Shown: piece by piece, positions 1 through 52,952 of the stretch
Layout of the letters: every line of letters begins with the position of its first letter
How positions within the stretch are numbered: position 1 is the first letter of the stretch
DNA from: Botryllus schlosseri
Lineage: Eukaryota
Direction: 5' to 3'
DNA: 64,000 bases
NCBI GenBank assembly: GCA_051294905.1
Contig: CM119371.1
Span: forward strand, 37,140,001-37,204,000
Translations under genes and position numbers: made by a program
The notes under the pieces: generated by a model
The model's database searches: none
Told to the model about the DNA's origin: nothing
Seen by the model: only the letters and a program-made list of their open reading frames with translations

Positions 1-216
1 CATATGGAGATGCACGCTGGCGTCAAAAATCATGAATGTACTATATGTGAAAAAACATTTACTCATAAGGGTAACCTCGAGCATCATATGGTGATGCATG
101 TTGGCGTCAAAAATCATGTATATGATGTGTGTGGAAAAGCATTTACTCAGAATACAACCCTTACCGGACATATGCGGATACATGCTTGCTTGAAAAATCA
201 TAAATGTGGTGTATGA
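1..216 (+). CDS. 3' end of C2H2 zinc-finger gene, copy A (runs in from the left edge)
   Basis: ORF ...MHAGVKNHECTICEKTFTHKGNLEHHMVMH...; same 28-aa unit and linker as the arrays at 30566 and 40801. Stop TGA at 214-216 falls inside a degenerate last finger. Confidence 0.85.
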   Translation, partial: HMEMHAGVKNHECTICEKTFTHKGNLEHHMVMHVGVKNHVYDVCGKAFTQNTTLTGHMRIHACLKNHKCGV

Positions 217-1720
217 GGGACGACATTTGCTCAGAAGAGTCACTTTGAACTCCATATGACTATCCTTGCCGGCATCAAACATCTTGTCTGCAATATTAAC
301 AATAAAGTTCGAACATCCCCCAGACGTGGCGTCCGAGTGGCATTACAGTCCAAATCTACCCCATACGTAATGCCGTCCGGCCGCTGGCATGCAATATCTG
401 TTTACGAAGCGACTAGCAATCGTTAGCGGCAACTGGGTACTCATCCGTTAATCACGTGTTGCGCATCTATCCGTAGATTAGTTATCCATAGTCAAACGCT
501 TCGTAGACACTCGGCCTCGTCTGGCGTCTGAGCCGGTTCAACTTCTGTTGCATTCATGGGCATAGTCGTATTGAACTTACTGGAAGCCAAACACCCATGT
601 TTAAAGTCCATTTCTGGTGAACTCCCGATTAATCAATTGTTTTCATATCACCTTACTGTGTGCACCGAAATCGGGAGTGGTCTTGTTATGAACAGTTACT
701 GGGAGTCAAGATGATCGCTTGAATTCACTAATGAATTTCGCCATTGATATTAGTAGTTTCACATATTACTATCGAATATTTGAATGATGAAGGGTGTGTT
801 TTCAAAGATCTAGGGCAAGTTATGAATGCTAATGCATCTTAGGACTTCGTTGCATGCCGTTTTTTCTTGAGATTACGTCAGGATTGTCGGTATAGTGGTA
901 AGATGTTGGAATCCCCCAAACGTACCAGAAACAAATTTCTTTCATAAAGAGCACATGGTTACAAATTGGTATTCATATCTTTTTCCTCTGCTGTTCACAT
1001 CTGTCCTGTGGGGCTTGCAAAGGGCGCGGCACTATATTAAAATCGAAAATTTAATGAAGTCACAATGAATCGCGCATAGCGCAAAGAAAATCTCAAGCGT
1101 AATTAAAATTCCTAAAAAATTCGAGAGTCAAATCATAAATTCAATTTGCATGTAGACGGCCGCCGACACATACTAAGTGAATTACATGTTGACAGCCGCT
1201 CAAAATTCTTTCTACGGCCTCAGGCTGCAGGGTTGTAACCTTGTCACAAGTCAATTGACGAAATGTGTATCAATAATATGGTAATTTTACTATTCTTCGA
1301 CGTTACAATGAAATGTCTGTCCTGGCCGCCCTAGTGTCGAGTCATATGACTTGGTTCGAGTAATGCACAATGACTCGAGTCACTAAAATATCTCGAGTCG
1401 AGTCATTACAACCCTGGCAGGTTGGCCAGCCATGAGCGAGAGTATCGATTTCCAGTGCATTACAACAAGTGTTTCACATGGCATGCTGTTGTGTTTCAAA
1501 TTGCCATAAATATTGTGTTACTATTGTTACAGATAAGTTTTAGTCCCCGAAAATTCAAAAGTTCTGTATACAGGATAACGTGACTATGACTGGTAATTGG
1601 CTATGCTGCTGCCACAAGATTAAAAGAAATGTAAGGTCGGAAGGAAAGGAAGTAAAAACGACCTAGTACTTTTCAACGAAACACCCACCTTGGAATAGAA
1701 CATATATATAAGAGGAATGC
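217..1720 (+). repeat. Duplicated zinc-finger 3' flank (segmental duplication)
   Basis: Colinear with 31920-33170 and with 42600-44105 plus 50420-50760 (e.g. cccatacgtaatgccgtcc..., gcatagtcgtattgaacttact...). Confidence 0.9.
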
Positions 1721-14800: not shown

Positions 14801-16799
14801 GCTATTGATTTTCTATTTGCACAATACATTCGATCGCTATTTCTTGTCTTTATGATTTTTGACCTTATTAACGTTAAGACGGTGAGGCTGAGACGCGGCA
14901 TATTGTTTTTATTGACAAGGTTGCTTGAACATGAATCTATGTCGGAATTTGCTGCGGTCTACGGGGAAGGGGGCGGCATTTTAGGCGAGAGCCAGGGGCG
15001 GCAGCACCTGCTGCTACGCCAGTGGCCCGAACATCCACGGTAGCGACAATTTGTGTATATATTTATTGAATCCAGCCACTGGGAACATTGGTTGATTTGT
15101 TGTCTGAAATTTTATCCCAATAAAGTGCTATATTTTATAGTGCTGGTATTTTTTGCTGACTGTGTGCGCAGGAGTGGCTCAACATTGTTACTTCAGTAGA
15201 AGTAATACCATAAATTCCTACCTATTTGCAAGTAAAAGTATCTATAGTGTGGTGCCAGTAGCGTGTTGACTTTTGTCCGCAATATTTTGCTGTCATCTGG
15301 GTGGATAGATCGGATGATCAAAGTGTTCAATCAAAACATTCTACGCATTCTTAAGACAGAATACAGCAATTATTGGATCAATCCCTTTGCTTATTTTGAT
15401 AAATCACTTACAACAGCAATTTACTGTTTCTGTATTTTGAGATTGTATGACAGACGACTTAATTTACTGACGTTCGTTCCTGATGAAAGTCAGCCGAATA
15501 GCTCAGAGTGGCATACATTTAGCGATATGATTTTGAGCGTATTGTTGTTGGCATAAAATTTGGCAGTTTAAATCTGTTAACGTAGGAGTACTTAGCTGAC
15601 ATAATCTCTCAAGTAAGCAGTACAGGTGGACTAAAATCATATACCAGCATGCTCCAAAAAAGCAGCACTTCGATACTTGCTACCTCTGATGCTACCCAAG
15701 TAGACGCCATAATAGTGAAGTAGATCAAAGCTACTGCACGTAGTAGCAGAATAGAACGTAGTTGAAAAGTCCTAGAAGTAAATCTGAACTAGACGATAGG
15801 GCTACCTGACTTGAGAATGAGTTTAAAAATGATGCGCGAACTTTAAAGATTATTGAAGTGAAAGTAGTCTAAGACCACTAGCGGAAGGATGGTCCGCTGT
15901 TGTGATTGTGGGATTTTGTGATATCATCAATGGACCACAGCTTTGCCATTTAAGGCGCGTTCCGCCGTTTAGACTCAAGCCACTCAAGGGATTTTATCGT
16001 AATCCGTCCGGTCCGCCGTTTAGTACTGGCCGTGATGTGATCACAATGACACCACTGTGATTCTGCCAGAAAATGCTTACGTCACATTTCCGAAATCGCC
16101 GAGTAATTGTTGTCGCAATGATTCACTTGTGCTAAAATCAAATATTATAACCGGAAAAACAATTTCGCGACAGTTTTGGAGTGCAAACGAACTGAAACAC
16201 ACGAGTTTTATCACTAAATGGCGCAAACGGTATGATCAATACAATATGTCATCGAAACTTGGAAGGAGTGCTTCATTTTACAACCGCCAGGTAGTACTTA
16301 TGGCATCTAAGTTTTCAGCCGTTACGTAATCTACGCAGGCTCTATTCTCGCCTGTAGCCGAAGCATCAGAGGTTAATTTGTGTTCCTTCCCCCATGTTTG
16401 ACTAGTTCTTACGTCAAGACGCCCGAAGTAAGACTCCACAAAAGATTATATGTGATATCGAACAGAAAAAAAACAAATAATAACGTTTAACGAAGACAGC
16501 CTATCCCACACTGTTACATCGGCCAATTGGCTTTAGTCGTTGTTTGATTAAAATACCATAATATGTAAATGCAACATCTTCTTGCCGGTTAACTACATCT
16601 CATTGCACACTATGTGTCTTGAGCACATCAGAATATAAATGATTACGATTATTGCGATCAACGTCATGTTCGTGTTCGTGTTCGTCGCAATTTATAAGTT
16701 ATTCAATAAACAATAAAAACAAAAAAAATGCAATAGCGTTGCTTCTGCTTCGGGCATTTTATATATTCGCAAAATTATTTCATCGTATGGTTTTACGTA

Positions 16800-18932
16800 G
16801 CCTACTTTTTGAAGATCAAAACGCACGATTTTGCGTCAAATACGACTTTTCGTCAAATTCGATTTTCGGTCAAATCCATTTTTGGTAAGTTTCAATTGAC
16901 AATTAGGACACTCGAATTGTAATGTCGTGCCCTCTGCTTCGGATATGTTACATATTAGGATAAGTATTAGATCATCATGTTAATGACATTATCAAAAAGT
17001 TGAGAAATTGCGTACTTTTTTAAGATCAAAATGCATGATTTTGCGTCAAATACGACTTTTTGTCCAATTCGATTTTCGGTCTATTTCAATCAACGATTTG
17101 GACACCCTAAATGTAACGGCGTGCCCTCTGCTTCGGATATGTTATATATTTCGTTAAGTATTAGATCATGATATTAACGATAATATCAAAAAGTTGAGAA
17201 ATTGTGTACTTTTTTAAGATCAAAATGCATGATTTTGCATCAAATACGAATTTTCGTCCAATTCGATTTTCGGTCAGTTTCAATCGACAATTAGGACACC
17301 CTAAATGTAACGGCGTGCCCTCTGCTTCGGATATGTTATATATTTCGTTAAGTATTAGATCATGATATTAACGATAATATCAAAAAGTTGAGAAATTGTG
17401 TACTTTTTCAAGATCAAAATGCATAATTTTGCGTCAAATACGACTTTTCGTCAAATTCGATTTTTGGTCAGATTCAATCGACAATTAGGACACCCAAAAT
17501 GTAACGGCGTGCCCTCTGCTTCGGATATGGTATATATTTCGATAAGTATTACATCATGATATTAACGATAATATCAAAACGTTGAGAAATTGTGTACTTT
17601 TTGAGGATCAAAATGCATGGTTTTGCGTCAAATACGAATTTTCGTCCAATTCGATTTTCGGTCAGATTCAATCGACAATTAGAACACCCGAAATGTAACG
17701 GCGTGCCCTCTACTTCGGATATGCTATATATCTGGACAGGTATTACATCATGATATTACCAATAATATCAAAAAGTTGAGAAATTGCGTACTTTTTTAAG
17801 ATCAAAATGCACGATTTTGCGTCAAATACGACTTTTCGTCAAATTCGATTTTTGGTCAGTTTCAATCGACAATTAGAACACCCAAAATGTAACGGCGTGC
17901 CCTCTGCTTCGGATATGTTATATATTCGGATAAGTATTAAATCATGATATTAACGACAATATCAAAAAGTTGAGAAATTGCGTACTTTTTGAGAATCAAA
18001 ACGCATGATTTTGTGTAAAATACGACTTTTCGTCCTGTTCGATTTTCCGTCAGTTTCAATGGACAATCAGGACACCTAAAATGTAACGGCGTGCCCTCTG
18101 CCTCGGATATGCTATATATTGGGATAAGTATTACATCATAATATTAACGATATTATCAAAAAGTTGAGAAATTGCGTACTTTTTTAAGATCAAAATGCAT
18201 GATTTTGCGTCAAATACGACTTTTTGTCCAATTCGATTTTCGGTCTATTTCAATCAACGATTTGGACACCCTAAATGTAACGGCGTGCCCTCTGCTTCGG
18301 ATATGTTATATATTTCGTTAAGTATTAGATCATGATATTAACGATAATATCAAAAAGTTGAAAAATTGCGTACTTTTTGAGGATCAAAATGCATGATTTT
18401 GCGTCAAATACGAATTTTCGTCCAATTCGATTTTCGGTCAGTTTCAATGGACAATCAGGACACCTAAAATGTAACGGCGTGCCCTCTGCTTCGGATATGT
18501 TATATATTCGGATAAGTATTACATCATAATATTAACGATAATATCAAAAAGTTGAAAAATTGCGTACTTTTTTAAGATCAAAATGCATGATTTTGCGTCA
18601 AATACGACTTTTCGTCAAATTCGATTTTTGGTCAGTTTCAATCGACAATTAGAACACCCAAAATGTAACGGCGTGCCCTCTGCTTCGGATATGTTATATA
18701 TTCGGATAAGTATTAAATCATGATATTAACGACAATATCAAAAAGTTGAGAAATTGCGTACTTTTTTAAGAATAAAATGCACGATTTTGCGTCAAATACG
18801 ACTTGTCGTCCAATTCGATATTCGGTCAGTTTCAATCGACAATTAGGACACCCAAAATGTAACGGCGTGCCCTCTGCTTCGGATATGTTATACATTTGGA
18901 TAAGTATTACATCATGGTATTAACGATGATAT
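16800..18932 (+). repeat. Left-arm tandem array, 11 x 194 bp
   Basis: Anchor gtgccctct at 16927, 17121, 17315, 17509, 17703, 17897, 18091, 18285, 18479, 18673, 18867 (period exactly 194). Confidence 0.97.
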
Positions 18933-19643
18933 CTGTTATAACATCATAATATAACAATTTCTGTTTTACCATGCTATGTCCTGTCCTGCTTGGTCATCTT
19001 CGTCCCTGATTTTTGTCAGCAACTCCCCTCGAATCAATGAGTTTCAGACGGATTAATATGCAAATTGAAAATGTAATTTCGAAACGTGTATTTTGTAAAG
19101 AATACTCGATGTAGATATAGGATTGTAGAAATGGACGTATTTAGAGAAAAAACGAAATATTCGAATTCATGCGGCATATCATTCTAATTAATCCAATGAA
19201 AACCCAAAGTCTTTAGATATTGAATTGTAGTCCTGATTTTTTAGTGCCATTGCGAAAAATATCATTCCTTCAAAATGCAGCACTTCGTTTACATATTCTC
19301 GTAAATTTCGTTTTTTGTCTTTAAAACTATGAAACAAAGCGTTCCCAAACATCTCAGGATTCGGATAAACGACTAAACTGTCTTTTGAGCTGTATAGGGA
19401 CAATTCCCCGCTCATGTGCTTGAAAAATTTAACGGTTCTGGTTCTAAGGCAAAATTTCGATTTAATGAATTCCAATAAATATTCCAGATGCGTTTCCGTA
19501 GTTTCGCTCTCGGCATATTTCAGAGTCGAATTGAATTTTTTCAGGGATTTTAGTTGTCCTTTCACGAACAGAGATTGTCGATACCATTCTGCTTTCGCAT
19601 AGTGGATCAGTCATAAAATCTGAACTTGATTCATATTGAAATC

Positions 19644-21761
19644 TTACTTGCAATTTGTAACGATGATGAAACTTTTTACAATCGAGTCCAATTCTTCAAT
19701 GGTTTTCGCTCGAAACATTTTGGAAATCCAACACATGGCATGTGTTTTGAGGCGCTTTTTATAATGTTTGACGATCATGACTTTTGCAGCTTTCATGGCA
19801 TGTGCCAAGCAATTCTGAATAAATGGCAGTTAAAGGTCATTCGCATTCGGCATTCCAGATACTACGCGATAGCAGCGGACGTAATATTGCAGTCTTGTTT
19901 CGTTGCAAAACGATCTTAAAATTGCATTCCACATTGCAGGCGATCCATCGATAATAATCCTTAGCGGAGCTGATTGAGCTCCGGTCAGGCGAAATCGTTC
20001 AGATAGAAAAAAATTCAGGAACTGTGAGATAGATATAGAGTCGTGACTTTTTGTAATGTAGGAAGCGATAGGAAGAGAAACTTCTCCTTTGATAGGATTC
20101 CGCACCAACAACGTATAAATTTGGAAGTCTTCGCCTCTTTTCAGGCTCCCACTGGCGTCGCAATAAATCATGTCTATCTTACATAAGGTATTAAACGCTT
20201 TGATCCCGAAAATTGTAAATATAATGATTTGCGGGGGAGATGTTTGAATGGATCTAATAAATCTTGTGGAATCCGCCTCTTCATCCTTCATTTTCTCTAA
20301 GTTGACGTACCATTCGCGTTTGACATCAATTAAAGTCTGTTCGCACTAGAGTTTTCGAAGTACGTTGGAGCTTGGCACGTCTGTATGGGAGCCGAGGATC
20401 CTCTGCTCAGCGGTCAGAGTATCGTACAACTCGTTGTGGAGCGATGCCGGCTTTCGGTGCTCCAGTTTACTTCTGATCATTTTCCGCTCGCTTCCGCGAA
20501 CTGGACGTGATCGTACGCATTCTCCTGTGTGACAACGAGTTCCGTCGATAATAATTCTCCCTTCAACATCTGGACAATTTTGACGCTGCATAAAGGTTAC
20601 ACGATACGTAACGTAACATGTTTTGTGCGAGCAATACAGATTTGCATTACCGACTTCATAACAGTCACTCCCTCTTTCGTTGACGACATGTCGCAAATAA
20701 TGATTGAGAAAGGCCGGAACGCATTCGTCGTACAAAGATTTTATAGGGTCCAGAATAACATTCCTGTACTCGTCCTTATCGAATCTGTTATTATCAACAC
20801 CGACGATGTATTTCCATTTACTTCCCTCAATATTAAAGTGACCTTCGATTTCAATTGTTTTAGATGTAATAAGGTCGAATTTGCTGCTGGTCATTAATGA
20901 GCCAAGTCCGATTTCCCCTTCGTTATCCGACAGTTCATCAGAGAATGATTTGTGGATCTGCGCAATGCCATCATTACACGATGGAATCTCTTGTACATCA
21001 TGAATGCTATCGGTTTGAGTCCCTTTTGTCAATAGCTCCACCGATGAGGTACAGGTACCGGCATCTTGAAGAATCTTTGATTGCATATTTCCATCAACAC
21101 GGTGGAATATTCCTGATCCTGATTTGGTATGTACGGCTACAGTGGCGTGTTGGCACAGTAATGGTACTTTTTCCCACTTTCCCTTTACAAATTTACGCAG
21201 ATCAGTGCCTTTGAAAATACAGATATCATGAAACCACGACTCACACGTGTCACATTGAACTAGCTCCTCCCCGCGCCACTCTTTGCGACACACACAGTAC
21301 CTCTGACCAGCAAAATTTGTCAACTCATCAACTTGTTTGGAGTTGTGTTTTTCAACAATACAGCGGACATCGACGTCATCACTGGTTGCCACATCATCTG
21401 TTTCGAAACGAGACATTCCTTTGAGAGCATTCTTTATCTCCACGTCTTGAAGTTTACAGAAACTACGCAGAAGTGTTTTCCGCTGCGTCGTGCTTTTCCC
21501 TTTACAATAACTGCAGCTATCCAGAAAATCATTTTGGAGTTTATCAGTTCTTAGTGATTCTACTCCATTACGATGCAGAAAATTAGCTATAGTCCTCACT
21601 AGATATTTCTTTTTGGTACTTAGCTGCTTGATACTTGACTGCTTGGTAGTTGACTGCTTGGTACTTGGCTGATGGGTACTTGACTGATGGGTACTTGAAT
21701 GCTTGGTACGGGTAGAAGCCCGACCCATGACCCTTGATAGAACAACGCTTGCAACATACAA
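19644..21761 (-). pseudogene. PHD-finger + NOF/MULE-type DDE transposase, one frame with two in-frame stops
   Basis: ORFs 21761-20346 and 20291-19830 and the continuation to 19644 share one frame, broken only by TAG (20346-48) and TAA (19830-32). Motifs: PHD YCVC...CDTCESWFHDIC...CQH (21147-21302); C-x4-C...H zinc-binding region; IYCDASGS (D1); RIIIDGSPAMWNAILRSF (D2); CLAH (MULE CxxH). Catalytic E not found. Confidence 0.82.
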
Positions 21762-22182
21762 TTCTTAACACTGCACCGTATTGGTTTTGCCAAGTGACAA
21801 CATTTCTTCTTCATATAGTTCACAAGTTCAAATGACATGACGAGCTGGTTCATCAACTAACGTAATTGTGGCGCGGGGGCCCTTAATAATCTTCGTGTCT
21901 ACGCCGCAAAATACCAATTATTGATCGTGAACTCAATTGACAGCCATTATAGTCGTTAGCTACCGAGGTCGACTCAAGAATTCCAGCCTTAGTGTTGGAT
22001 GTTCATCAAGACAAGTCGGCAGCTACGGATTAAAATGAACAAATGGCCTTGTGTAAATGACCATAGTAGTTGACAAACACCATGAACACCCTAAGTAAAC
22101 AAAGACAAACCATATTGAAGATCAACCTATTACCAACGCCGAAAAGGCCTAATATCTCGAAGCTTTGCGTTTCATTTCGAGC

Positions 22183-24232
22183 GTCCTAATTGTCGATTGA
22201 AACCGACCGAAAATCGGATTAGACGAAAAGTGGTATTTGACGCAAAATCGTGCATTTTGATCTTAAAAAAGTACGCAATTTCTCAACTTTTTGATAATAT
22301 CGTTAATATTATGATGTAATACTTATCCGAATATATAACATATCCGAAGCAGAGGGCACGCCGTTACATTTTAGGTGTCCTGATTGTCCATTGAAACTGA
22401 CCGAAAATCGAATTGGACGAAAATTCGTATTTGACGCAAAATCATGCATTTTGATCCTCAAAAAGTACGCAATTTTTCAACTTTTTGATATTATCGTTAA
22501 TATCATGATCTAATACTTAACGAAATATATAACATATCCGAAGCAGAGGGCACGCCGTTACATTTAGGGTGTCCAAATCGTTGATTGAAATAGACCGAAA
22601 ATCGAATTGGACAAAAAGTCGTATTTGACGCAAAATCATGCATTTTGATCTTAAAAAAGTACGCAATTTCTCAACTTTTTGATAATATCGTTAATATTAT
22701 GATGTAATACTTATCCCAATATATAACATATCCGAGGCAGAGGGCACGCCGTTACATTTTAGGTGTCCTGATTGTCCATTGAAACTGACGGAAAATCGAA
22801 CAGGACGAAAAGTCGTATTTTACACAAAATCATGCGTTTTGATTCTCAAAAAGTACGCAATTTCTCAACTTTTTGATATTATTGGTAATATCATGATGTA
22901 ATACCTGTTCAGATATATAGCATATCCGAAGTAGAGGGCACGCCGTTACATTTCGGGTGTTCTAATTGTCGATTGAATCTGACCGAAAATCGAATTGGAC
23001 GAAAATTCGTATTTGACGCAAAACCATGCATTTTGATCCTCAAAAAGTACACAATTTCTCAACTTTTTGATATTATCGTTAATATCATGATGTAATACTT
23101 ATCGAAATATATACCATATCTGAAGCAGAGGGCACGCCGTTACATTTTGGGTGTCCTAATTGTCGATTGAATCTGACCGAAAATCGAATTGGACGAAAAT
23201 TCGTATTTGACGCAAAACCATGCATTTTGATCCTCAAAAAGTACACAATTTCTCAACTTTTTGATATTATCGTTAATATCATGATGTAATACTTATCGAA
23301 ATATATACCATATCTGAAGCAGAGGGCACGCCGTTACATTTTGGGTGTCCTAATTGTCGATTGAATCTGACCAAAAATCGAATTTGACGAAAAGTCGTAT
23401 TTGACGCAAAATCGTGCATTTTGATCTTAAAAAAGTACGCAATTTCTCAACTTTTTGATATTATCGTTAATATCATGATGTAATACCTGTCCAGATATAT
23501 AGCATATCCGAAGTAGAGGGCACGCCGTTACATTTCGGGTGTTCTAATTGTCGATTGAATCTGACCGAAAATCGAATTGGACGAAAATTCGTATTTGACG
23601 CAAAATTATGCATTTTGATCTTGAAAAAGTACACAATTTCTCAACTTTTTGATATTATCGTTAATATCATGATGTAATACCTGTCCAGATATATAGCATA
23701 TCCGAAGTAGAGGGCACGCCGTTACATTTCGGGTGTTCTAATTGTCGATTGAATCTGACCGAAAATCGAATTGGACGAAAATTCGTATTTGACGCAAAAT
23801 CATGCAATTTGATCTTAAAAAAGTACACAATTTCTCAACTTTTTGATATTATCGTTAATATCATGATCTAATACTTAACGAAATATATAACATATCCGAA
23901 GCAGAGGGCACGCCGTTACATTTAGGGTGTCCAAATCGTTGATTGAAATAGACCGAAAATCGAATTGGACAAAAAGTCGTATTTGACGCAAAATCATGCA
24001 TTTTGATCTTAAAAAAGTACGCAATTTCTCAACTTTTTGATAATGTCATTAACATGATGATTTAATACTTATCCCAATATGTAACATATCCGAAGCAGAG
24101 GGCACGACATTACAATTCGAGTGTCCTAATTGTCAATTGAAACTTACCAAAAATGGATTTGACCGAAAATCGAATTTGACGAAAAGTCGTATTTGATGCA
24201 AAATCGTGCGTTTTGATCTTCAAAAAGTAGGC
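22183..24232 (-). repeat. Right-arm tandem array, 10 x 194 bp plus a partial unit, inverted relative to the left arm
   Basis: Anchor agagggcac at 22351, 22545, 22739, 22933, 23127, 23321, 23515, 23709, 23903, 24097. Confidence 0.97.
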
Positions 24233-25594
24233 GACGTAAAACCATACGATGAAATAATTTTGCGAATATATAAAATGCCCGAAGCAGAAGCAACGCTATT
24301 GCATTTTTTTTTGTTTTTATTGTTTATTGAATAACTTATAAATTGCGGCATTACAGTCGACCTATACCAAACACGAACATGACGTTGATCGCAATAATCG
24401 TAATCATTTATATTCTGATGTGCTCAAGACACATAGTGTGCAATGCGATGTAGTTAACCGGCAAGAAGATGTTGCATTTACATATTATGGTATTTTAATC
24501 AAACAACGACTAAAGCCAATTGGCCGATGTAACAGTGTGGGATATGCTGTCTTCGTTAAACGTTATTATTTGTGTTTTTTTTTCTGCTCGATATCACATA
24601 TAATCTTTTGTGGAGTCTTACTTCGGGCGTCTTGACGTAAGAACTAGTCAAACATGGGGGAAGGAACACAAATTAACCTCTGATGCTTCGGCTACAGGCG
24701 AGAATAGAAGTAGGTCCGTCTGCGTAGATTACGTAACGGCTGAAAATTTAGATGCCATAAGTACTACCTGGCGGTTGTAAAATGAAGCACTCCTTCCAAG
24801 TTTCGATGACATATTGTATTGATCATACCGTTTGCGCCATTTAGTGATAAAACTCGTGTGTTTCAGTTCGTTTGCACTCCAAAACTGTCGCGAAATTGTT
24901 TTTCCGGTTATAATATTTGATTTCAGCACAAGTGAATCATTGCGACAACAATTACTCGGCGATTTCGGAAATGTAACGTAAGCATTTTCTGGCAGAATCA
25001 CAGTGGTACAATGACAACAATATAATGAATATTAATTGTCAAGTCAGTGCTCAGTTCAGTACGAATCACGAGTAGTGTTGCTGTGATTATGTTCAGAATA
25101 AGTCAGTCTTTACGTTCAATGTAGGATCAGTATGTTGACAATAAGGTCATTCCACGGTTGAGGGTTCATGGCATTTAGGAAGGGCTGGGGACGAGGGTCC
25201 TATCCAGGGTCGGGCTCGCTCACCACTATACACGCTATCTCTCCCACTACTAATGATAGTAACTTCTGTTCAAAATTTTTCCAAATTTCACTGGATACGT
25301 TATAAAATAGTTATGTTGGCTAAAAAAATGTTGCACACCAAATTTGGCGGAATTCCAACCAGTAGATGCAGAGTTCTTGGATTGCATCAAAAAGTTTTGA
25401 ATTTAATATTTAAAAAATAGTAATTGAAATTTCATGCCCAACCTGTAAAATTGTTAGGCTGTCAGTAGAGACGATGCAAGCCAAATTGGGCTCAATTTCA
25501 ACCAGTAGAAGCGATGTTGTTGCAGTAGAAAAATTTGAAATTGAATAAAATACTTCATGAATGATGTGGAAGGTTCGAGTATCAACCTTTTATG

Positions 25595-27945
25595 CGATCA
25601 CCATGATAGGGTTGCGATATTTTGGGATCCAAGAAGGAGGACACTTTTTACCAGTTACAAGATTCACAATACTGAACCCCAAAAGTGCCGATGCTATAAT
25701 TTTAGCGGGAAATTATGTTGCTTTAACTAAAAAAGTCAACTTTCCGAGTCGCAAAAAAAGAAAAGGTCATATTTCCAGTCCTACTTCCGAAAGACCCACC
25801 CGAATATCCACGGGAGTGTATTGGTGTATATATTTCTTGAATCCAGCCACTGGGAACAGTGGTTGCGTTTGTTGTATAAAATTGCATCCCAATAAAGTGC
25901 TATATTTGACAGTGCTGGTATTTTTTGCTGATTGTGTGCGCTGGAGTGGGTTGAATTCCTACTCATATACAAGTAAATTATTAATTTCGAAGACACGCCC
26001 AAACTACTCGGAGTAGAAAGCCTGTACTCCAGTAAGTAGTTTTGGAAGTTGATTTATAGTTTGGTGCCAGTAGCGTGCTGACTTTGGTCTGCGATACTTA
26101 GCTGTCATCTGGGTGGATAGTATTAAAAAGCGTCTCTTCAGTTGAGCAAAGTGTCCTTTAATTGCCTCTTATCTAAACATTCTATGCGTTCTCAGTACGG
26201 TACAGGATACGAAAATTCATGACCAATCTCTTTGTTTGGTTTGTTACGATCACGTTAGAACAACGAAATTGTTTCCGTATTTCGAGATTGTAATGTATAA
26301 CCGTATTTACTGACGTTCGCTCCTGATGAGAGTCGGTCAAATAGCTCATAGTGGAATTAATAAGACAATATGATTTTGATACTTAGCTGTCGTCTGGATG
26401 GATAGTGATAAAAAGCGGTTCTTCGGTTGAGCAAAGTGTCCTTGCCTCTTATCTAAGCATTCTATGCGCTGTCAGGATAGGAAAATTCATGACCAATCTC
26501 TTCGTTTGGTTTGTTATGATCACGTTACAACTAGGGCTGGGCAAAATCGAGTACTTGAGTGATTCGATTCTGAATCACGCAATATGCTTCGAGTCGAGTC
26601 GAGTAATCGAGTATCACTCATTATGACGTCATAACAGAATGTAATACGTCAAAGTTCAAATATGTACCGTTTATGCCACCAAAAAGAATATGATGACTGT
26701 TATCCATCTCATAAACGATAATTTGGTATTTTTTCAACCATACCGATTTCATTCCACTTGGTGACAATGTTGTGGGATAATCATGACTTCGGACATGTGC
26801 TACGTCCGGTAACCTTCGTAGCTTTGTACTATATGTTTCGTATGCTACGATACCACCAATCACGGTTTCATGGCTTCAACGGTCAAAATTAGTATCAAAA
26901 CTATAATTCTCGTTGATAAATTAACTTTCAAGTAGTGAGAAGCTTATAATTTCAGTACTCGAAAAAATCGTCTTTTACTACTCGACTCGAATCATTAAAA
27001 TTATTACTCGATTCAGATTCGAGTACTCGAATCATTGTGCCCGGCCCTAGTTACAACAACGAAATTGTTTCCGTATTTCGAGATTGTAATGTATAACCGT
27101 ATTTTACTGACGTTCGCTCCTGATGAAAGTCGGTCAAATAGCTCATAGTGGAATTAATAAGACATTTGATTTTGAATATATTTTGTTTTTTGACGTAAAA
27201 GTTGACCAGCAGTTGGAATCTGTAGATGTGAAAATATTTTGCTGGCAATCCTGGCATAATATCAAGTAAGCAGTACAGCTACACTAAAATATACTAGCAT
27301 GCTGCGAAAACGCAGTATTTCGCTACTGGTTACCTCTGAGTAAAATTTCTGATTCTAAACCATCCTCAGAATTTTACTCAAGTGGACGCGATAATATTGA
27401 AGTATATCAAAACTACCTCACGTAGTAGCAGAATAGAACGTTGTTGAAAAGTCTAAAAAGTAAATTGGAACTGGACGATAGGGCTACATGACTTGATAAT
27501 GAGTTTAAAAGTGAAATACGAACTTTAGAGATTCTTAAAGTGGAAGTAGTCCAAGACCACTTGCGGGGGGACGGTCCGCTGTTGTGATTGTGGGAGTTTG
27601 TGATATCATCGATAGACCACAGCTTTGCCGTTTAGTATTGCGCGTTCCGCCGTTTAGACCTCACTCGAGGGATTTTGTCATTGTCTGTCCGATCCGCCGT
27701 TTAGTCTTGGCCGTGATGTGATTACAATAACAATAATATAATGAATATTATAGTCAGTCTGTAACTCAATACGGTATTTAGTTCAGTTCGTCGAGTACGA
27801 ATCACGAGTAGTGTTGTTGTGACTATGTTCAGAAGAAGGTCAGTCTCTACGTTGAGGGTTTATGGCATTATTAGGAAGGGTTGGGGCCGAGGGTCCTATC
27901 CAGGGCTCGCTCACCACTATACATGCTATCTCTCCCTAATGATAG
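25595..27945 (+). repeat. Segmental duplicate of 7150-7392 + 15025-16050 + 25008-25260, lacking the hAT nest and the foldback insertion
   Basis: Colinear similarity across both insertion points; includes an internal ~290-bp tandem duplication at 26095-26390. Confidence 0.85.
26532..27049. mobile_element. hAT MITE (TAGGG ends)
   Basis: TIR tagggctgggca / tgcccggcccta; TSD GTTACAAC at 26524-26531 and 27050-27057; empty site near 26254. Confidence 0.9.
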
Positions 27946-28207
27946 TAGCCCCTAACCTAATGACCCCAGCCCCCTACCTAAGGACCCTCACCCCCAAACC
28001 TAATGACACTAGCCCTTAACCGTGGGCTGAAATTATTGTGAGCATATAGCAACTTTACGGTACGGTATACTTACGGTACGTAACCACACCAACCCCGTAG
28101 AAAGGTTTCTTGCATAGAACAATTAAGTTATTAAAGAGAAAATTGTGTGCGAGATTACCACTTATTCCACTCTAGCACCCACCCACTGACCCTCTTTTGC
28201 CTAGAAG

Positions 28208-30531: not shown

Positions 30532-31957
30532 GTGATACTTAGAGAGTAGTGGAAGATTAGAGGACATGCATTCCGGTGTCAAAAATCATGAGTGTGATGT
30601 ATGTGGGAAAATATTTACTCAAAAGTGTAACCTGACGCGTCATATGGAGATGCATGTTGGCATGAAAAACCATGAATGTGATGTGTGTGGAAAAGCTTTC
30701 ACCCAGAAGGGAGACCTGATGTTTCATGTGGACATACATGCTGGCGTCAAAAATCATGAATGTGCTGTGTGTGGAAAAGCATTTACTCGGAAGGGTAACC
30801 TCAAACTCCATATGGAGATGCATGCTGGCGTCAAAAACCATGAATGTGCTGTGTGTGGAAAAGCATTTACTCGGAAGGGTAACCTCAAACTCCATATGGA
30901 GATGCATGCTGGCGGCAAAAACCATGAATGTGCTGTGTGTGGAAAAGCATTTACTAGGAAGGGTGACCTGAAGCTTCATATAAAGATGCATGTTGGCGTC
31001 AAAAATCATGAATGTTGTGTTTGTGGAAAAGCATTTACTCAGAATGGTCACCTGAAGCTTCATGTGGAGATGCATGCTGGCGTAAAAAATCATGAATGTG
31101 GTGTTTGTGGGAAAGCATTTACTCAGAATGGTCATCTGAAGCTTCATATGAAGATGCATGCTGGCGTCAAAAATCATGAATGTGCTGTGTGTGCGAAAGC
31201 ATTTATTCGGAAGCGTGACCTGAAGCTTCATATAAAGATGCATGCTGGCGTCAAAAATCATGAATGTGGTGTTTGTGGAAAAGCATTTACTCAGAATGGT
31301 CACCTGAAGCTTCATATGGAGATGCATGGTGGCGTCAAAAATCATGAATGTGGTGTTTGTGGGAAAGCATTTACTCAGAATGGTCATCTGAAGCTTCATA
31401 TGAAGATGCATGCTGGCGTCAAAAATCATGAATGTGCTGTGTGTGCGAAAGCATTTACTCAGAAGGGTGAGCTGAAGCGTCATATGAAGATACATGCTGG
31501 CGTCAAAAATCATTAATGTACTGTGCGTGGAAAATCATTTCCTCACCAGAGTAACCTCAATCTTCATATGAAGATGCATGCTGGCGTCAAAAATCATGAA
31601 TGTGCTGTATGTGGAAAAGCATTTACTCAGAAGGAAGACCTCAAGCTTCATATGAAGATCCATGCTGGCGTCAAAAATCATGAATGTGCTGTGTGTGAAA
31701 AAGCATTTACTCAGAAGGGTAACCTTGAGCGTCATGTAGAGATGCATGCTGGTGTCAAAAATCACGAATGTGCTGTGTGTGGGAAAGCGTTTACTCAGAA
31801 GGGTCACCTGAAGCTTCATATGCGGATGCATGATGGCATCAAAAATCATCATGTGATGTGTGTGAGAAAGCATTTACTGAGAAGACAACCCGGACATATG
31901 CGGATGTATGCTTGCATGAAAAATCATCTTGTCTGCAATATTGGCAACAAAGCTTGA
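30532..31957 (+). pseudogene. C2H2 zinc-finger array exon, copy B (14 intact fingers plus 1 broken; probably disabled)
   Basis: Acceptor tttAG at 30530-31; 1-nt deletion versus copy C just after the acceptor; 11 fingers in ORF 30566-31516; TAA at 31514-16 where other units have GAA, followed by a finger lacking its second Cys; 3 further fingers; frameshifted tail. An 11-finger product from ATG 30566 is not excluded. Confidence 0.8.
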
Positions 31958-40505: not shown

Positions 40506-40765
40506 TAATACTCGATCCAGATTCGAGTACGGTTCTCGAGTCATTGTTCCCGGCCATAGTGATATAGTTGATTAGAGTTAACAGTCTTTGTTACAAACTC
40601 TGTTGGTAATTTGTGCCCAACATTTTGAGCCTAAAGGACTTCACGTAGGATGTTATCTCAATTGCTATATATACACAGTTCATTTAGTAGTGATCATATC
40701 AACAAGTGAGAGACACACAGACTCTAATATTCTAACGATTCATCATACCTTGAAATGACGTTTAG

Positions 40766-42180
40766 GTGATATTTACGAGAGTAGTGGAGGATTAGAGGAT
40801 ATGCATACTGTTGTCAAAAATCATGAATGTGTTGTGTGTGGGAAAGCATTTACTCAGAAATGGAACCTGAAGCTTCATATAGAGATGCATGCTGGCGTCA
40901 AGAACCATGAATGTAATGTTTGTGGAAAAGCTTTTACTCAGAAAGGAGGCCTGAAGCTTCATATGGAGATGCATGCTGGCGTCAAAAATCATGAATGTGC
41001 TGTGTGTGGAAAATCATTTACGCAGAAGGGTGACCTCAAGAATCATATGAAGATGCATGGTGGAGTCAAAGATCATGAATGTGCTGTGTGTGGGAAAGCA
41101 TTTACTCGGAAGGGAGACCAGAAGCTTCATATGGAGATGCATGCTGGCGTCAAAAATCATGAATGTGCTTTATGTGGAAAATCATTTACTCAGATGGGTA
41201 ACCTCAAATTTCATTTGGACATGCATGCTGGCGTCAAGAACCATGAATGTGATGTGTGTGGCAAAGCTTTTACTCTGAAGCAAGTCCTCAAGTGTCATAT
41301 GGACATGCATGCTGGCGTCAAAGTTCATGCATGTGCTGTCTGTGGAAAATCATTTACCCAGAAGGGTCACCTCAAGCGTCATATGGAGCTTCATGCTGGC
41401 ATCAAAAATCATGAATGTGATGTCTGTGGAAAAGCATTTACTCACAAGGTTAGCCTCAAGCTTCATATGGAGATACATGCTGGCATCAAAAATCATGAAT
41501 GCGCTGTATGTGGAAAAGCATTTATTCTGAAGGGTAGCCTCAAGCGTCATAAGGAGATGCATGTTGGCGTAAAATATCATGAATGTGCAGTGTGTGGAAA
41601 ATCATTTACTCTACAGAGTAGCCTTAAGCGTCATATGAAGTTGCATGCTGGCGTCAAAAATCATGGATGTGCTGTGTGTGGGAAGGCATTTACTGAGAAG
41701 GGTCACCTGAAGCTTCATATGAAGATGCATGTTGGCGTCAAGAATCATGGATGTAGTGTGTGTGGCAAAGCTTTTACTCAGAAGGGAGGCCTCAAGCTTC
41801 ATATGGACATGCATTCTGGCATCAAAAATCATGAATGTACTGTATGTGGAAAAGCTTTTATTCTGAAGGGTAGCCTCGAGCGTCATAAGGAGATGCATGT
41901 TGGCGTAAAATATCATGAATGTGCAGTGTGTGGAAAATCATTTACTCTACAGAGTAGCCTTAAGCGTCATATGAAGTTGCATGTTGGCGTCAAAAACCAT
42001 GAATGTAGTGTGTGTGGCAAAGCTTTTACTCGGAAGGGAGGCCTCAAGCTTCATATGGACATGCATTCTGGCATCAAAAATCATGAATGTGCTGTGTGTG
42101 GGAAAGCATTTACCCATAAAGGTAACCTCAAGCCTCATATCAAGATGCATGTTGGCATCAAAAATCATGAATGTGACTGA
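40766..42180 (+). CDS. C2H2 zinc-finger array exon, copy C (16 intact tandem fingers)
   Basis: Acceptor tttAG at 40764-65; frame open from the acceptor (GT GAT ATT TAC GAG...: DIYESSGGLEDMH); ORF 40801-42180 contains 16 CxxC-x12-HxxxH units; a ~20-nt deletion in finger 17 creates the stop. Confidence 0.9.
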
Positions 42181-45169: not shown

Positions 45170-46115
45170 ATGGATATTTTGGACATCGTAGATGTCAGTT
45201 CGGACAACGAGAATACAATTGTTATGCCCAGGCATTACTTGGCAGACATATCGGACTCATTTGTAAAATACCAAGAAAATGAATTCGACGATGACCGCTA
45301 CAGATTTTACAAGGGAGCTACGGTAATTCTATTGGACATGATTAAAGACAGCCCATGGTTGGATGTACGGTGCCAAGCTTTGCACCCCATGATGCAATTA
45401 CTCTGTGCTCTCCGATTTTTTGCTTCGTCGTTTTCAACAAACAGATGCTGATTTGATTGGTGTGTAAGCCGGACAACTGCACGCCGAATAATCCACTGCA
45501 TTTCTCGGGCATTATCAGAGAATAGAGAAAATTTATCCCACGATTGGATGATTCGTTACCAACAAAGAGTGATTTCTTTGACATACTGGAGTTCCAAATG
45601 TCATCGGTTGCATTGATGGTACCCATATCCCAATAAAGTCCCCAGGTGGCTCTGTACCAGAAAATTTATCGTTGCAGGAAGGAATATTTTTCTTCGAACT
45701 GTCAAATGGACTGCAATGCCAAGAGAATACCGGTAGTGACTATTGCTGTTGTGCTGGGAGACAAAGGCTCTATGCTCTAAAAATGTACCTGATGACTCCA
45801 TTAACAAATCCACAGCTTGCACAAGAAAAAAAATACAGCTATATGTACTCAAAGACATGCATGCTGATCGAGCAATGCTTTTGCGTTCTGAAACAGCGTT
45901 TCCAGATGTTGCTAAATCCTATGCGAATGCAAATCGAAAACACTGTCCTGGCAATAATTGCAACCATATGTTTGCACAATTTTGCTACAAAAACCAATGA
46001 GCCAGTTCCTGATATTGCAGTTACTCCCGAGGAAGCTACGGATATAACATCTGAAGTTATATACACTAACGCAATAGCCTATCTTGAAAATAAGATCAAC
46101 ACATATTTCTACTAA
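45170..46115 (+). pseudogene. Harbinger transposase (HARBI1-like DDE nuclease), frameshifted and internally deleted
   Basis: RYRF...QLLCALRFFAS, VIGCIDGTHIPIKSP, LMTPLTNP...LIEQCFCVLKQRFQML...ICLHNF, spread over several frames. Confidence 0.88.
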
Positions 46116-48720: not shown

Positions 48721-50786
48721 GAGATCGGCGGAACTCATTTATTACATAATTTGTATGCAATTATCATTATCATTAAACATTCTGTAATAACATGATCATC
48801 AGTCAATAAGCACAATTGAGTACCGGTAACAAAATATCGTCAACATGCAATCTTCACTATCTTTATAACGAACCTCAGATAAGCAATTCCAATCTACAAT
48901 GTCCTAACTATTACAAACCTCGCCAAATTTATATGCTTGTGTACATTAATCGAGACTTTAATCCTGGTGGCGACCAGGATCAAGAAGCAGCTATCTATAC
49001 TCAGTTGGTTGTGGCAGAATCTTACTAATCTACCTTTCTAGTCCGCAGAAAATCCAGCAACGTGCAAAATCGCCATATCTATTATTTGATCTATATTTTT
49101 GGCCTCCACCCTTAGACAACCACCAAAATCTGAGTTTTTTTTCGTGGCATCTCGTGACCCGAGCCTCACCCATGAAAAGAAATTCATTTTTATTATTACA
49201 GTAGTATGCTATGATGTGATGTACATGCATGACATACAGAATGCGCGCACACACTATTCTATCCAACACAGCCCTACAAAATATGTCCGACGGACGTGAT
49301 TTCAAATTAGGGTGAATTAAATCCCTTAGCGTGTCACAGTTGTATTACGGTTTACCTACTCAGATTGCAAGAACGGGACTATTCCGTGCTGACAACGGAG
49401 CATATGCATATCGAATGAATTGGCCATCCAGTATCGGTCATCTTTGACCAAGGTTTTGTCGACGCTTATGTTTTTGCACCGCAGACCCGACCCGACACAG
49501 AAAGGGTTGGCCTCGAAACGAATGAGTCTTATATACGTGAACTCGCTCGTTGCAGATCCCTATTAGCTACAGTAGTTCATCCCAACGGTCATCGCCATGT
49601 TTTCGAGAAAAACTAGTCGGACAAATATTCACAAATATTCTCATGAATTCTCATTATAAAGCTTATTCGCTCAAGTACCCAACACCATGACCTTAGATTT
49701 GTGAAATCTATCGCAGGATTTTTGCAATAAATTTAACAAATATCACATACTTATTAACGCATAGCTCTGGCACAGTGTCGACCCAAAATCATATCTTTTG
49801 CAGTCCATACTTTAATAATCCTTGAAGGGGTAAGATTTGCGATACAGTAACCTGCAAATTGGAGTCTGTGATGATATAATTTACTGTTATCCTCGTGCCT
49901 CGCACCAATCGAACATGTATTACATAATTATGATGATTGTTTAGCGAAAAGTAAGCAGAAAGTCAATTTAACGTCATTTTCCCGGCCTGTCGCATGTTCA
50001 GAAGGGCTGATATAGGCCTACTGTATGTCTGCCACTACACCAGCTTCCAAACCAAGCTTTTGGTTAAGTAATAATTGAAGAGCGAAAATGTTAATCCACT
50101 ACGGCTTGTGAGAGCAACGACTAGTGTTGCGTCGTAACTTAACAAGTTTTTACAATTGCGTCGCAACAACAATAGTTGCACTGCCGCTAATTTCCTATAA
50201 GGTATATTTGAATTATTCCAGGCCAGAAAAATTGACAAATAATATTCACGATTTTCCTTCGCACTCATATGGGATTTTCATTCGCACTGTTCGCACCACC
50301 TTCGTCGTTCCCACTCATCCGGATTTTTCATTCGCACCGTTCGCACCATGCTCGTCATTCGCACTGCAATTTTTTTCATTCGCACAGGTGCGAACCGTCA
50401 CACAGGTTGAAAAGCACTGCGCTATACTATTACTCGAAGTATTTCAGTTGGACACTTTCTGATTCAACATTAGTGGTTTTATAATTTTCGTCAGCCCTAA
50501 CCAACCAGGCAATCCAATGTACAATGTGAATAGTGATGTAATAAACACATATAGCTGGATTTCTAAAAGAAACAATCAAGTCAGTCCACTTCAATTTAAT
50601 AATGATTTCATCATTTTAAAAACATCACACAATTACGATAAATGTAAGGTAGAAAGGAAAGGAAGTCGAAACGACCGAGTAGTTTTCAACAAAACACCCA
50701 CCTTCGAATAGAACATATATATATATATATATAAGAGGAATGCACACAGAATTGATGGTGTACCAGACTAGAATATGTATGTATAA

Positions 50787-51405
50787 TAGGGCGGTTCAAA
50801 AATAACATTTTTTCCTTAATCTTGCGGGCTACATGATTAAATCGTCAGGTTACCTTAAAAAACGACGCACACCAAATTTGAATTCATTCCGACCAATATT
50901 CGCGGTTTACGTAGAGTTTGAAAATTTTGAATTTGCCCAGAAACGCAAAAAATTTTTTTTTACAAATTTTTCTGCTAACCCCATGAAATTGTTGGGCTGT
51001 CTTCAAAGACTATGCAAAACAAATTTTATTCAATTCCAAGCCGTAAGAGCGGAGTTATTCCAGTTTTTCGATGAAAATTCTTGGATTATCCACCAATCAA
51101 GGATAATCCCAGAATTATCAAAGAAAAACTGATATAACTCCACTTCTACTGCTTAGAATTGAGTCAAATTTGTTTTGCATAGTCTTTGAAGACAGCCCAA
51201 CAATTTCATGGGGTTAGCAGAAAAATTTGTAAAAAAAAAATTTTTGCGTTTCTGGGCAAATTCAAAATTTTCAAACTCTACGTAAACCGCGAATATTGGT
51301 TGGAATGAATTCAAATTTGGTATGCGTCGTTTTTTAAGGTAACCTGACGATTTAATCATGTAGCCCGCAAGATTAAGGAAAAAATGTTATTTTTGAACCG
51401 CCCTA
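50787..51405. mobile_element. 619-bp near-palindromic MITE (TAGGG ends, hAT-like)
   Basis: Arms of roughly 250-290 bp, almost perfectly complementary; TSD ATGTATAA at 50779-50786 and 51406-51413; empty site near 1756. Confidence 0.93.
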
Positions 51406-52952
51406 ATGTATAATGACTTGAACGTTGTCATCACATGCACAACGCTCTTCTAGGTGAAGATTGAAGAAGCCGTTTTCGCAGTGGAACTGATGCGTTAATT
51501 TATCATCCATAGATTGCTAATATCTTTAATGTTTAGGACACCAAAACCTTGGAGTACCGGTATGTTATTTATTTGGTATTGTAATATTATTGTGCTGAGA
51601 TACTTAAATGTCTAGTTTTCTGCTGTAATATGTGACAAAATCCTCTGTTGATATGGCTAAATAATCTGTCCATGTTATGATAGTAACGAACTACTAGATG
51701 TAACTAGTGCACTTTATTTGTTTCTTATTTTTTTTCTCTGGTTGTGTTCAGCATTTTGTATTTCAAACTTCAAACGTTATGAGTTTCCTCATTCGTGTTT
51801 GAGCGTAGTAAGTAACGCTGCGACGATAGCAGTAAGCTAACATGAGTCCACATTTTGGTAAAATCACATTTCATGCATAATTTGGCTGTTAGCGTAACAA
51901 CCTAAAACAGGGGTTCTTAAACCTTTTTGATCGCAGATCCCGTCAAGTTTTCTGGACGTTTGCGCTTAACCCCCAAATTTCTGAGGCCAAAGAGTGGAAG
52001 GTCATCACCTCAAACTGTATTTTGGCCATTTCACTTCTGAAATAACATAGCGAATGACCAGATGAAGAAGTTACAGTCCGACTCACGACATTATTATCAG
52101 AGGAAAATCTGGTTTTGTAGTTTCTTGATGACATAATGCCCTTTCACGCCCCCCTAAAACTCGCTCGCAGATTCCTAGGGGTTCCGTGGACCCCAGTTTG
52201 AGAGCCTTGACCTAAGATTTCAATATATGTTTTAATACGATTATTTGCCATTCTCACACTTATTTGAATTTAATCTGATCTGATAAAGAACCGAACTTGA
52301 TTTTTGTTCTATTTCTTCTTAATGCGTTATATAATGAAGAGCTAATGTTTGTAGATGTTGTACTTGTGTAATCTGAAGCCAGAAGGTTATCGCAGCATTC
52401 CTTGCGTATTTATTCCCTTCGACGCACCGCAGGGGTTCGTTGGCTGACGTACCACGAAGCCTGTCTAGTGCACACGTATTTCGAAGGTCACGCGGACAAC
52501 TCTTTTTGTTTCTGTCTCCACGACGTGTAAATTTATTGAATCAACGTACGACGACGTAATATCTCTTCGATCATAAATTGAATTGAATGTATGAATACGC
52601 TGTATCACATTCGTATATATATCATAGCCACGAGAGATTACATGCACAAAACATCGTACCACTTATTACAGCTTATCTCTACTTAACGCGGCGTATAGAT
52701 TACCATGTAGCACAAATGTTCTTATCGGGAATTTCACTTCATGGAATTAAGCATTGTTGGCAAGACTCCTCATTGATTAAATCTTAAATAGCGTTAACAT
52801 TATATCCGGTTATACGTAATATAATTCCATCACCAAGTTGTTGAGAATTCAGTGATTCTTATTGTTATCTAATTTTGAAAAATCTGTGTAGCTACCGTAC
52901 ATGATAATAATTATAATATCTTTTGTAAAAGCTGTCCAACTTCCCTTGACAG

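What the first reader, a model, noticed from the sequence alone, without database searches (positions are those of the whole stretch)
16051..25007. A 9-kb foldback transposon: giant satellite-bearing inverted arms around a PHD-NOF/MULE transposase
Seen: exact inverted termini, 8-bp TSD, near-identical ~750-bp outer arms, 194-bp arrays in opposite orientation, and a ~3.2-kb core with a single minus-strand reading frame. About two thirds of the element is inverted repeat. Known: Drosophila FB-NOF has modular tandem-repeat arms around a Mutator-related NOF gene and promotes rearrangements. Inference: this is an FB-NOF-like family in a different lineage with an unusual combination (long fixed-length unit, N-terminal PHD, 8-bp TSD) that may be undescribed. 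It is the best candidate in the window for a new system.
Basis: partly seen in the sequence, partly recalled or inferred. Interest (0 to 1): 0.85.

Follow-up and report, generated by a model that had tools for sequence, protein, structure and literature searches.

The report
Deleted Rehavkus-like foldback DNA transposon
This is a real 9-kb jumping gene with long, repeat-filled mirror-image ends and a broken Mutator-type cutting-enzyme gene, likely in a sea squirt and likely unable to move without help from intact relatives; its layout matches an already described group (Rehavkus/NOF), so it is a new member, not a new system.

Summary
The element is real (16051-25007). It has ~800-bp outer arms about 98-99% alike and 194-bp arrays of 10.8 and 10.4 copies in opposite orientation. 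A target duplication flanks it, and a paralogous empty site at ~27725 holds the target once. The duplication reads equally as 8 or 9 bp.

The core encodes a PHD finger and a Mutator/IS256-type DDE transposase whose nearest named relative is from the ascidian Styela clava. This copy is dead: two stops are read as sense codons in other copies, and an internal deletion at ~19600 removed the third catalytic residue. The 'single frame' is therefore a join.

None of the three 'unusual' traits is new. Rehavkus-1_TC is 9.5 kb with 164-bp units in its inverted termini; Rehavkus carry a PHD finger; Tetris has ~220-bp units and 8-9-bp duplications. Sequence membership in Rehavkus/NOF could not be tested directly.

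The scan noted similar Rehavkus-like foldbacks at five other places in this genome (unchecked notes). Verdict: new member of a known kind. Open points: a probable chordate host, and the parent's unknown C-terminal half (protease domains in relatives, plus an unassigned 140-codon tail).

The parts
16043..16050 (+). Left target-site duplication ACAATGAC (or 16043-16051 if 9 bp)
   Evidence: paralogous empty site holds one copy
16051..16846 (+). Left outer (non-repetitive) inverted arm
16847..18933 (+). Left array of 194-bp units, 10.8 copies, each with 2-3 short 17-bp sub-repeats
19188..19600 (-). Tail open frame (140 codons from 19610). Likely the 3' end of the parent gene; no domain assigned; shared with other copies
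19600..19647 (-). Internal deletion junction (~19600/19601), preceded by a likely intron donor GTAAG at 19647
   Evidence: homology ends at 19647; contigs of other copies continue 241-303 unlike letters beyond 19600; junction sequence
19648..21728 (-). Transposase gene, 5' part: probable ATG 21728; D at 20159, D at 19949, CxxH at 19811-19800; stops at 20348 and 19832 that other copies read as sense
21150..21299 (-). PHD finger (Pfam PF00628, E 1.5e-6, 28.6 bits against cut-off 24)
21960..22110 (+). Decayed piece of a very high-copy repeat, likely a tRNA-derived SINE, carried upstream of the gene
   Evidence: depth about 1000-fold above the core; loose ends with a B-box-like motif and AAC-rich tails
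22168..24185 (-). Right array of 194-bp units, 10.4 copies, inverted; unit order differs from the left array
24186..25007 (-). Right outer inverted arm
25008..25015 (+). Right target-site duplication (25008-25016 if 9 bp)
27051..27947 (+). Paralogous copy of the flanks without the element (empty site at about 27724-27732)

Best explanation
This is an internally deleted, stop-broken copy of a foldback DNA transposon whose transposase is of the Mutator/IS256 type and likely belongs to the Rehavkus/NOF branch; it likely inserted by cut-and-paste and would now move only with enzyme supplied by intact family members. Shown here: inverted ends, arrays, target duplication with an empty paralogous site, PHD finger, two catalytic Asp and the CxxH motif, loss of the region with the catalytic Glu, and other sequence variants of the core in several samples. 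Inferred from Muta1 biochemistry (PMC5499845): the transposase binds the terminal motif and, in multiple copies, the subterminal repeats, pairs the two ends, excises through flank hairpins and joins to a target with an 8-9-bp stagger; more repeats raise binding and excision. Inferred from the unit pattern: the arrays turn over by unequal exchange and conversion between arms and copies. Inferred and untested: the PHD finger reads histone H3 marks and biases insertion or protects the element; the deleted part held a Ulp1-like and/or ubiquitin protease, as in its closest relatives.
For: Structure and TSD. Empty paralogous site. phmmer: 463 hits at E<=1e-3, best 37% identity, E 4e-98, from Styela clava. 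A profile of 71 relatives (838 positions) matches the window only at positions 49-476, while the catalytic Glu motif lies near position 590-596. All 63 alignments with at least 60 residues left and ending below 19800 (of 148 rows) stop between 19623 and 19791, 16 of them at 19647. Contigs of runs X1 and X5 leave the window at 19600 with 241 and 303 further letters; contigs of X1, X5 and X9 read sense codons at 20348 and 19832. Relative P0005 (48% identical over 209 aa): model pLDDT 89; best PDB match ISCth4, IS256 family (Foldseek E 3.7e-5; Z 11.8, rmsd 5.1, 233 aligned, next 9.2); nearest Atlas structure cluster auto-named 'NOF-FB', with Ulp1 in 45% and PHD in 34% of members (same for insect relative P0144). 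Published Rehavkus traits match.
Against: No named Rehavkus or NOF sequence was available, so the branch assignment rests on architecture and an automatic cluster name that the Atlas itself scores under its naming bar. Pfam MULE does not hit the window's 4 frame pieces and hits only 1 of 29 relatives, below cut-off. The fold was predicted for a relative, not for the window's own protein. Published Rehavkus have 9-bp TSDs, while the symmetric reading here gives 8. The tail frame matches none of 21 long relatives (best z 2.2), so protease domains in this family's parent are not shown. No intact parent was seen in one piece, and contig depth gives no copy number.
Confidence: 0.85

Rival explanations
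1. A distinct, unnamed marine branch of Mutator-like foldback elements, sister to rather than inside Rehavkus/NOF, defined by an N-terminal PHD, an 8-bp TSD and a C-terminal Ulp1-like plus ubiquitin-protease cargo.
For: The window groups with Styela clava P0152 and two unnamed proteins at SH-aLRT 95-98, far from the other rows (quick tree, 73 rows). Both full-length members of that group carry an N-terminal PHD and a C-terminal UCH. No Pfam MULE hit. Rehavkus is reported only from arthropods and an annelid.
Against: PHD position varies among relatives (4 upstream and 4 downstream of the first Asp among 11 of 150 hits with the motif). Insect and fish relatives share the same core and point to the same NOF-named cluster. 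The TSD may be 9 bp.
Confidence: 0.1
2. An assembly artefact: an inverted duplication or collapsed satellite around a transposase fragment.
For: Long near-identical inverted repeats are hard to assemble. No record spans the element: only the core was laid, and no listed piece spans even that.
Against: Exact TSD with an empty paralogous site. The arms differ by substitutions and indels and by unit order: L5=R7, L7=R8, L8=R9, L9=R10 at 0-2 differences, while L6/L10 and R3/R4 have no close partner in the other arm. The core is held by 20 of 24 listed runs.
Confidence: 0.03
3. The stops are not damage: the gene is intact through splicing or recoding, and this copy is autonomous.
For: All pieces lie in one frame with no frameshift. 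There is a GTAAG donor-like site at 19647 that other copies share. The tail frame is open over 140 codons (chance about 1e-4).
Against: The two upstream stops fall in collinear conserved alignment, and other copies read sense codons there. The catalytic Glu region is absent from all six frames of the window, so no splice can supply it.
Confidence: 0.02

Closest known systems
Rehavkus DNA transposons (Repbase; Rehavkus-1_TC, -3_TC, -2_Nvi, -1_DY, -1_HR, 1_AP), placed in or beside the MULE superfamily
   Same: Inverted termini made of a TIR plus subterminal tandem repeats (PMC12581902, passages). [quoted passage not shown] PHD finger in the transposase, one ORF (PMC6446971, passages).
   Different: Listed hosts are insects and a leech, against a probable ascidian here. 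TSD is 9 bp in 5 of 6 listed families, against 8 or 9 here. Longer outer arm (~800 bp) and unit (194 bp). This copy is deleted. Sequence identity to Rehavkus was not testable.
Drosophila FB-NOF / RepeatMasker class MULE-NOF
   Same: Modular tandem-repeat arms around a Mutator-related gene (recalled). The nearest Atlas cluster for two relatives is auto-named after the NOF protein. MULE-NOF is already counted in a teleost genome (PMC4746887, table passage).
   Different: FB arms use short units of about 10-31 bp (recalled) rather than 194 bp. FB-NOF is described as non-autonomous and limited to the melanogaster group (title of Badal 2013, seen only in reference lists). No direct alignment to NOF was made.
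Tetris (Drosophila virilis foldback)
   Same: Outer flanking domain up to 866 bp, ~220-bp tandem units, TIRs up to 1,735 bp, TSD 8-9 bp (PMC4079207, passages).
   Different: Tetris has no known transposase; this element carries most of one. No sequence comparison was made.
Muta1 of Aedes aegypti (active MULE, foldback type)
   Same: 8- or 9-bp TSDs from one enzyme; subterminal repeats bind transposase and raise excision (PMC5225508, PMC5499845, passages). It supplies the mechanism.
   Different: 3.2 kb, 145-bp TIR, 12-bp units, 504-aa transposase with a zinc finger; a canonical MULE.
ISCth4 (IS256 family) transposase, PDB 6xg8/6xgx
   Same: Best fold match for the catalytic core of a close relative.
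   Different: Bacterial, 11-12% identity, no foldback arms or PHD.

Membership tests
MULE/Mutator superfamily (broad sense) | TIRs with an 8-11-bp TSD | tested here: met
   range from PMC6446971
MULE/Mutator superfamily (broad sense) | RNase H-like DDE core with C/D(2)H motif, IS256-like fold | tested here: met
   Two Asp and CxxH present in the window and nearly invariant in 71 relatives. The Glu is present in relatives (28 of 156 by motif) and deleted in this copy. Fold tested on relative P0005.
Canonical MULE clades (MuDR, Phantom, Spectre, Ghost) | Pfam MULE (PF10551) domain with FLYWCH/SWIM finger | tested here: not met
   No hit on the 4 frame pieces; 1 of 29 relatives hits weakly, below cut-off; 1 of 26
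Rehavkus | Inverted termini with subterminal tandem repeats | tested here: met
   definition in PMC12581902
Rehavkus | PHD finger in the transposase | tested here: met
   PF00628 E 1.5e-6; definition in PMC6446971
Rehavkus | 9-bp TSD | tested here: inconclusive
   8 and 9 bp both fit the one insertion; no second copy with flanks was found
Rehavkus | Transposase clusters with Repbase Rehavkus proteins | not testable with these tools
   Repbase/Dfam are not held; the paper's FASTA supplements cannot be read; the tree has no reference
FB-NOF / MULE-NOF | Homology to the Drosophila NOF protein | tested here: inconclusive
   Only an automatic cluster name, under the Atlas naming bar; no NOF-named hit
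FB-NOF / MULE-NOF | Arms of short modular repeats as in FB (recalled) | tested here: not met
   Unit is 194 bp with 17-bp sub-repeats; it works like FB but is not the FB family
Autonomous transposon | Intact transposase with complete catalytic triad | tested here: not met

The most novel reading that the evidence does not exclude
The intact parent is a giant foldback element of a little-sampled tunicate/marine branch whose single protein joins a histone-reading PHD finger, a NOF-type transposase, SUMO- and ubiquitin-cleaving proteases and a C-terminal domain of no known family (the 140-codon tail). It picks insertion sites by chromatin mark, strips silencing marks from itself, and seeds 194-bp satellite arrays across a chordate genome.
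Probability: 0.2. Interest if true: 0.55.

Novelty: new member of a known kind. Interest (0 to 1): 0.3.

Why it matters
As it stands, it extends a poorly described transposon group (Rehavkus, known mainly from Repbase entries for insects and a leech) to a probable tunicate. It also gives a clean example of array turnover inside the arms of one insertion, a known route from transposon to satellite DNA. If an intact parent with PHD and protease domains is recovered, it would allow a direct test of why DDE transposases repeatedly acquire chromatin readers and ubiquitin/SUMO proteases, a question raised in PMC2836005 and not tested there.

Tried and rejected
No whole genome is held, so copy number and family-wide TSD length could not be counted.

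Searches that found nothing: the terminal 22-mer in metagenome contigs (0); a relative's protein in metagenome contigs (32 pattern matches, none confirmed); word-index protein searches (0 of 3,916 candidates; 0 of 511 with an ill-chosen length range; 7 of 7,997, none named NOF); Rfam on 15000-26000 (0); tRNAs (0). A PDB sequence search with a profile found protease domains but no transposase. The 194-bp unit has no special fold (z -1.7). The bacterial promoter scan was uninformative.

The tail frame had no Pfam hit, no match in 156 relatives by tblastn and none in 21 long relatives by local alignment. No RNA holder was listed in the index. The one RNA run laid (X23, about 3% read) gave only 1-3 reads per position near the 3' end, too few to weigh.

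Rejected: a non-standard genetic code (other copies have sense codons at two stops; three different stop codons would be needed); an assembly artefact; an intact gene by splicing. Look-ups of earlier scan notes by sequence found no look-alike for the arm, unit or core, so whether those notes concern the same family is untested.

Literature: nine searches found no paper on a Rehavkus/NOF foldback in a tunicate, nor on a PHD-DDE-Ulp1-USP fusion. Repbase, Dfam, most subscription journals, Yuan and Wessler 2011 (not held) and two FASTA supplements of PMC6446971 were not seen and may hold such a description. I also recall, unchecked, a foldback element reported from Ciona in 2000.
Full report
OBSERVATION. 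The element spans 16051-25007 (8,957 bp). Its ends are inverted, exact for 32 bp and 99% complementary over 288 bp. The outer arms align at 807 matches and 13 mismatches with several short indels. Inside them lie arrays of a 194-bp unit, 10.8 copies on the left and 10.4 inverted on the right; arms make up 63% of the length. The flanks repeat ACAATGAC directly. Because the next base is A on both sides, the duplication reads equally as 8 bp with symmetric ends or as 9 bp with the left end one base shorter. One insertion cannot decide this, and no genome is held to count others.

THE INSERTION IS REAL. The flanks have a 75%-identical paralogue at 27051-27947. There the left and right flanks run on without the element and the target occurs once, as expected for an insertion. 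The arms are not mirror copies. The two outermost units match between arms (3 and 0 differences); inner units match with a shift (L5=R7, L7=R8, L8=R9, L9=R10, 0-2 differences); L2 recurs as L8 and L6 as L10; R3 and R4 have no close partner in the left arm. This pattern points to unequal exchange and conversion (inference) and argues against a mis-assembled inverted duplication. The core is held by 20 of 24 listed runs, from three coded organisms. No spanning long read was seen.

THE GENE. One minus-strand frame runs 21764-19191 with four internal stops. It holds a PHD finger (E 1.5e-6). A search of 1.84 billion proteins gave 463 hits at E<=1e-3. The best is from the ascidian Styela clava (37%); other named hits are from Phallusia, fish, a sea cucumber, a mussel and an insect (30 proteins looked up, most unnamed). 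In a quick tree of 73 rows (79 relatives covering at least 300 aa, 7 redundant ones dropped, plus the window) the window groups with the Styela protein and two unnamed ones at SH-aLRT 95-98. A tunicate host is thus likely; an earlier unchecked scan note also calls this genome a sea squirt.

Relatives conserve D, D, CxxH and E; the window has the first three elements. The window's own protein was not folded. A relative 48% identical over the core (P0005) was modelled at pLDDT 89. It matches best the IS256-family transposase ISCth4 (E 3.7e-5; Z 11.8, rmsd 5.1, 233 aligned), then P, Hermes, RAG and integrases. Its nearest Atlas structure cluster is auto-named '120.7 kDa protein in NOF-FB transposable element', as for an insect relative; both rows are under the Atlas's bar for naming a family. 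Against a canonical MULE: Pfam MULE does not hit the window and hits 1 of 29 scanned relatives weakly.

THIS COPY IS DEAD AND DELETED. Of 148 alignment rows in the element, the 63 that end below 19800 with at least 60 residues left all stop between 19623 and 19791, 16 of them at 19647. A profile of 71 relatives matches the window over positions 49-476 of 838 and nowhere else significantly in six frames; the Glu motif lies near position 590-596. Contigs from runs X1 and X5 match 19250-19600 and 19420-19600, then continue with 241 and 303 letters unlike the window, so other copies hold more sequence there. A contig of X5 covers 19640-19819 with a single difference elsewhere, so the stop at 19646 is shared; it lies in a GTAAG and is likely an intron donor. 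The stops at 20348 and 19832 are read as sense codons in contigs of X1, X5 and X9 (in X1 only a low-depth divergent contig covers 19832). Of 35 listed coding differences (40 of 230 rows were shown), 17 are silent, which suggests selection on the family's frame.

The 140-codon tail is unlikely to be open by chance (about 1e-4) and is shared by other copies, but it resembles nothing tested. Among 29 relatives scanned (chosen as best or long hits from 157 held), 11 carry a ubiquitin hydrolase (UCH), 9 a Ulp1 protease, 10 a PHD, and 2 all three. The two full-length members of the window's own group carry PHD and UCH. The deleted part may therefore have held proteases, but this is not shown. A few single-cell RNA reads (1-3 per position) near the 3' end carry other copies' letters; this is too thin to weigh.

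MECHANISM. By analogy with Muta1 (PMC5499845 and PMC5225508, passages read), the enzyme binds a terminal motif and the subterminal repeats, cuts through flank hairpins and inserts with 8- or 9-bp duplications, and more repeats raise binding and excision. I infer the same here, with the 17-bp sub-repeats as candidate binding sites. The copy keeps both ends, so it would be mobile in trans. Its arms differ by about 1-2% and its TSD is exact, which suggests a recent insertion. A role of the PHD in reading H3 marks is inference from the domain's known function (recalled).

COMPARISON. Rehavkus elements have 9-bp TSDs, TIRs of 26-412 bp and a PHD finger, are listed from insects and a leech, and are described in Repbase only (PMC6446971: outline, two parts of the main text, passages and six supplement rows). 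In Tribolium their inverted termini hold variable numbers of subterminal tandem repeats (PMC12581902, passages). [quoted passage not shown] Tetris has an outer domain up to 866 bp, ~220-bp units and 8-9-bp TSDs (PMC4079207, passages). Tm1 shows a MULE transposase in foldback arms with slightly asymmetric ends (PMC3169594, passages). Ulp1, PHD and peptidase C19 add-ons to transposases are each reported (PMC2836005, passages). MULE-NOF is an existing annotation class with counts in a fish genome (PMC4746887, passage). PMC13359780, PMC8277862, PMC12694884 and bioRxiv 2021.09.26.461848 were seen in passages only and added little. So the element works like Rehavkus/FB-NOF and meets every Rehavkus trait I could test except TSD length, which is inconclusive; membership by sequence remains untested. 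My searches found no tunicate report, but Repbase, Dfam and unreadable supplements may hold one.

EARLIER SCAN NOTES. Five notes describe Rehavkus-like foldbacks elsewhere in this genome, several of them deleted, one with PHD-DDE-Ulp1-USP. I had reached the same reading before seeing them; they are unchecked and are not counted as support. Sequence look-ups found no look-alike.

VERDICT. A real, well-preserved but non-autonomous foldback transposon; new member of a known kind; interest 0.3.

Noticed in passing
window 21960-22110: A decayed very high-copy repeat (depth about 1000 times the core; B-box-like head and AAC-rich tail in loose ends) sits upstream of the transposase gene and seems fixed in the family; likely an old tRNA-derived SINE.
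   Followed up: partly
window 19188-19600 (-): A 140-codon open frame shared by other copies, with no Pfam or relative match; possibly an unknown C-terminal domain of the parent transposase.
   Followed up: partly
window 1-309, 30536-31884, 40759-42180: Tandem C2H2 zinc-finger genes with very uniform 84-bp repeats (about 16 fingers in each of the two long arrays), a local cluster of paralogues; the one at 30536 loses its frame near 31516.
   Followed up: no
window 15026-16050 + 25008-25260 versus 25799-27947: The element inserted into one copy of an old local duplication (69-82% identity), which supplies the empty site.
   Followed up: yes
window 50782-51410 (related pieces near 29600, 38800, 54700, 56100): A palindromic MITE-like element with 310-bp arms and a 9-bp spacer, with several dispersed relatives in the window.
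   Followed up: no
window 45582-46115 (+): Fragment of a Harbinger-type DDE_Tnp_4 transposase (E 3.7e-8).
   Followed up: no
protein P0152 (Styela clava), residues 60-192: The gene model of the nearest named relative starts with a weak GDSL/SGNH-like domain (E 2.7e-5, below cut-off) ahead of PHD, DDE and UCH.
   Followed up: no
protein P0126: A relative is filed under a bacterial metagenome-assembled genome (Sedimenticola sp.) although the family is otherwise animal; likely host contamination of the bin.
   Followed up: no
window 16051-18933: The arms are CpG-rich (observed/expected 1.6-1.9 against about 1.0 in the flanks), with no sign of methylation-driven decay.
   Followed up: no
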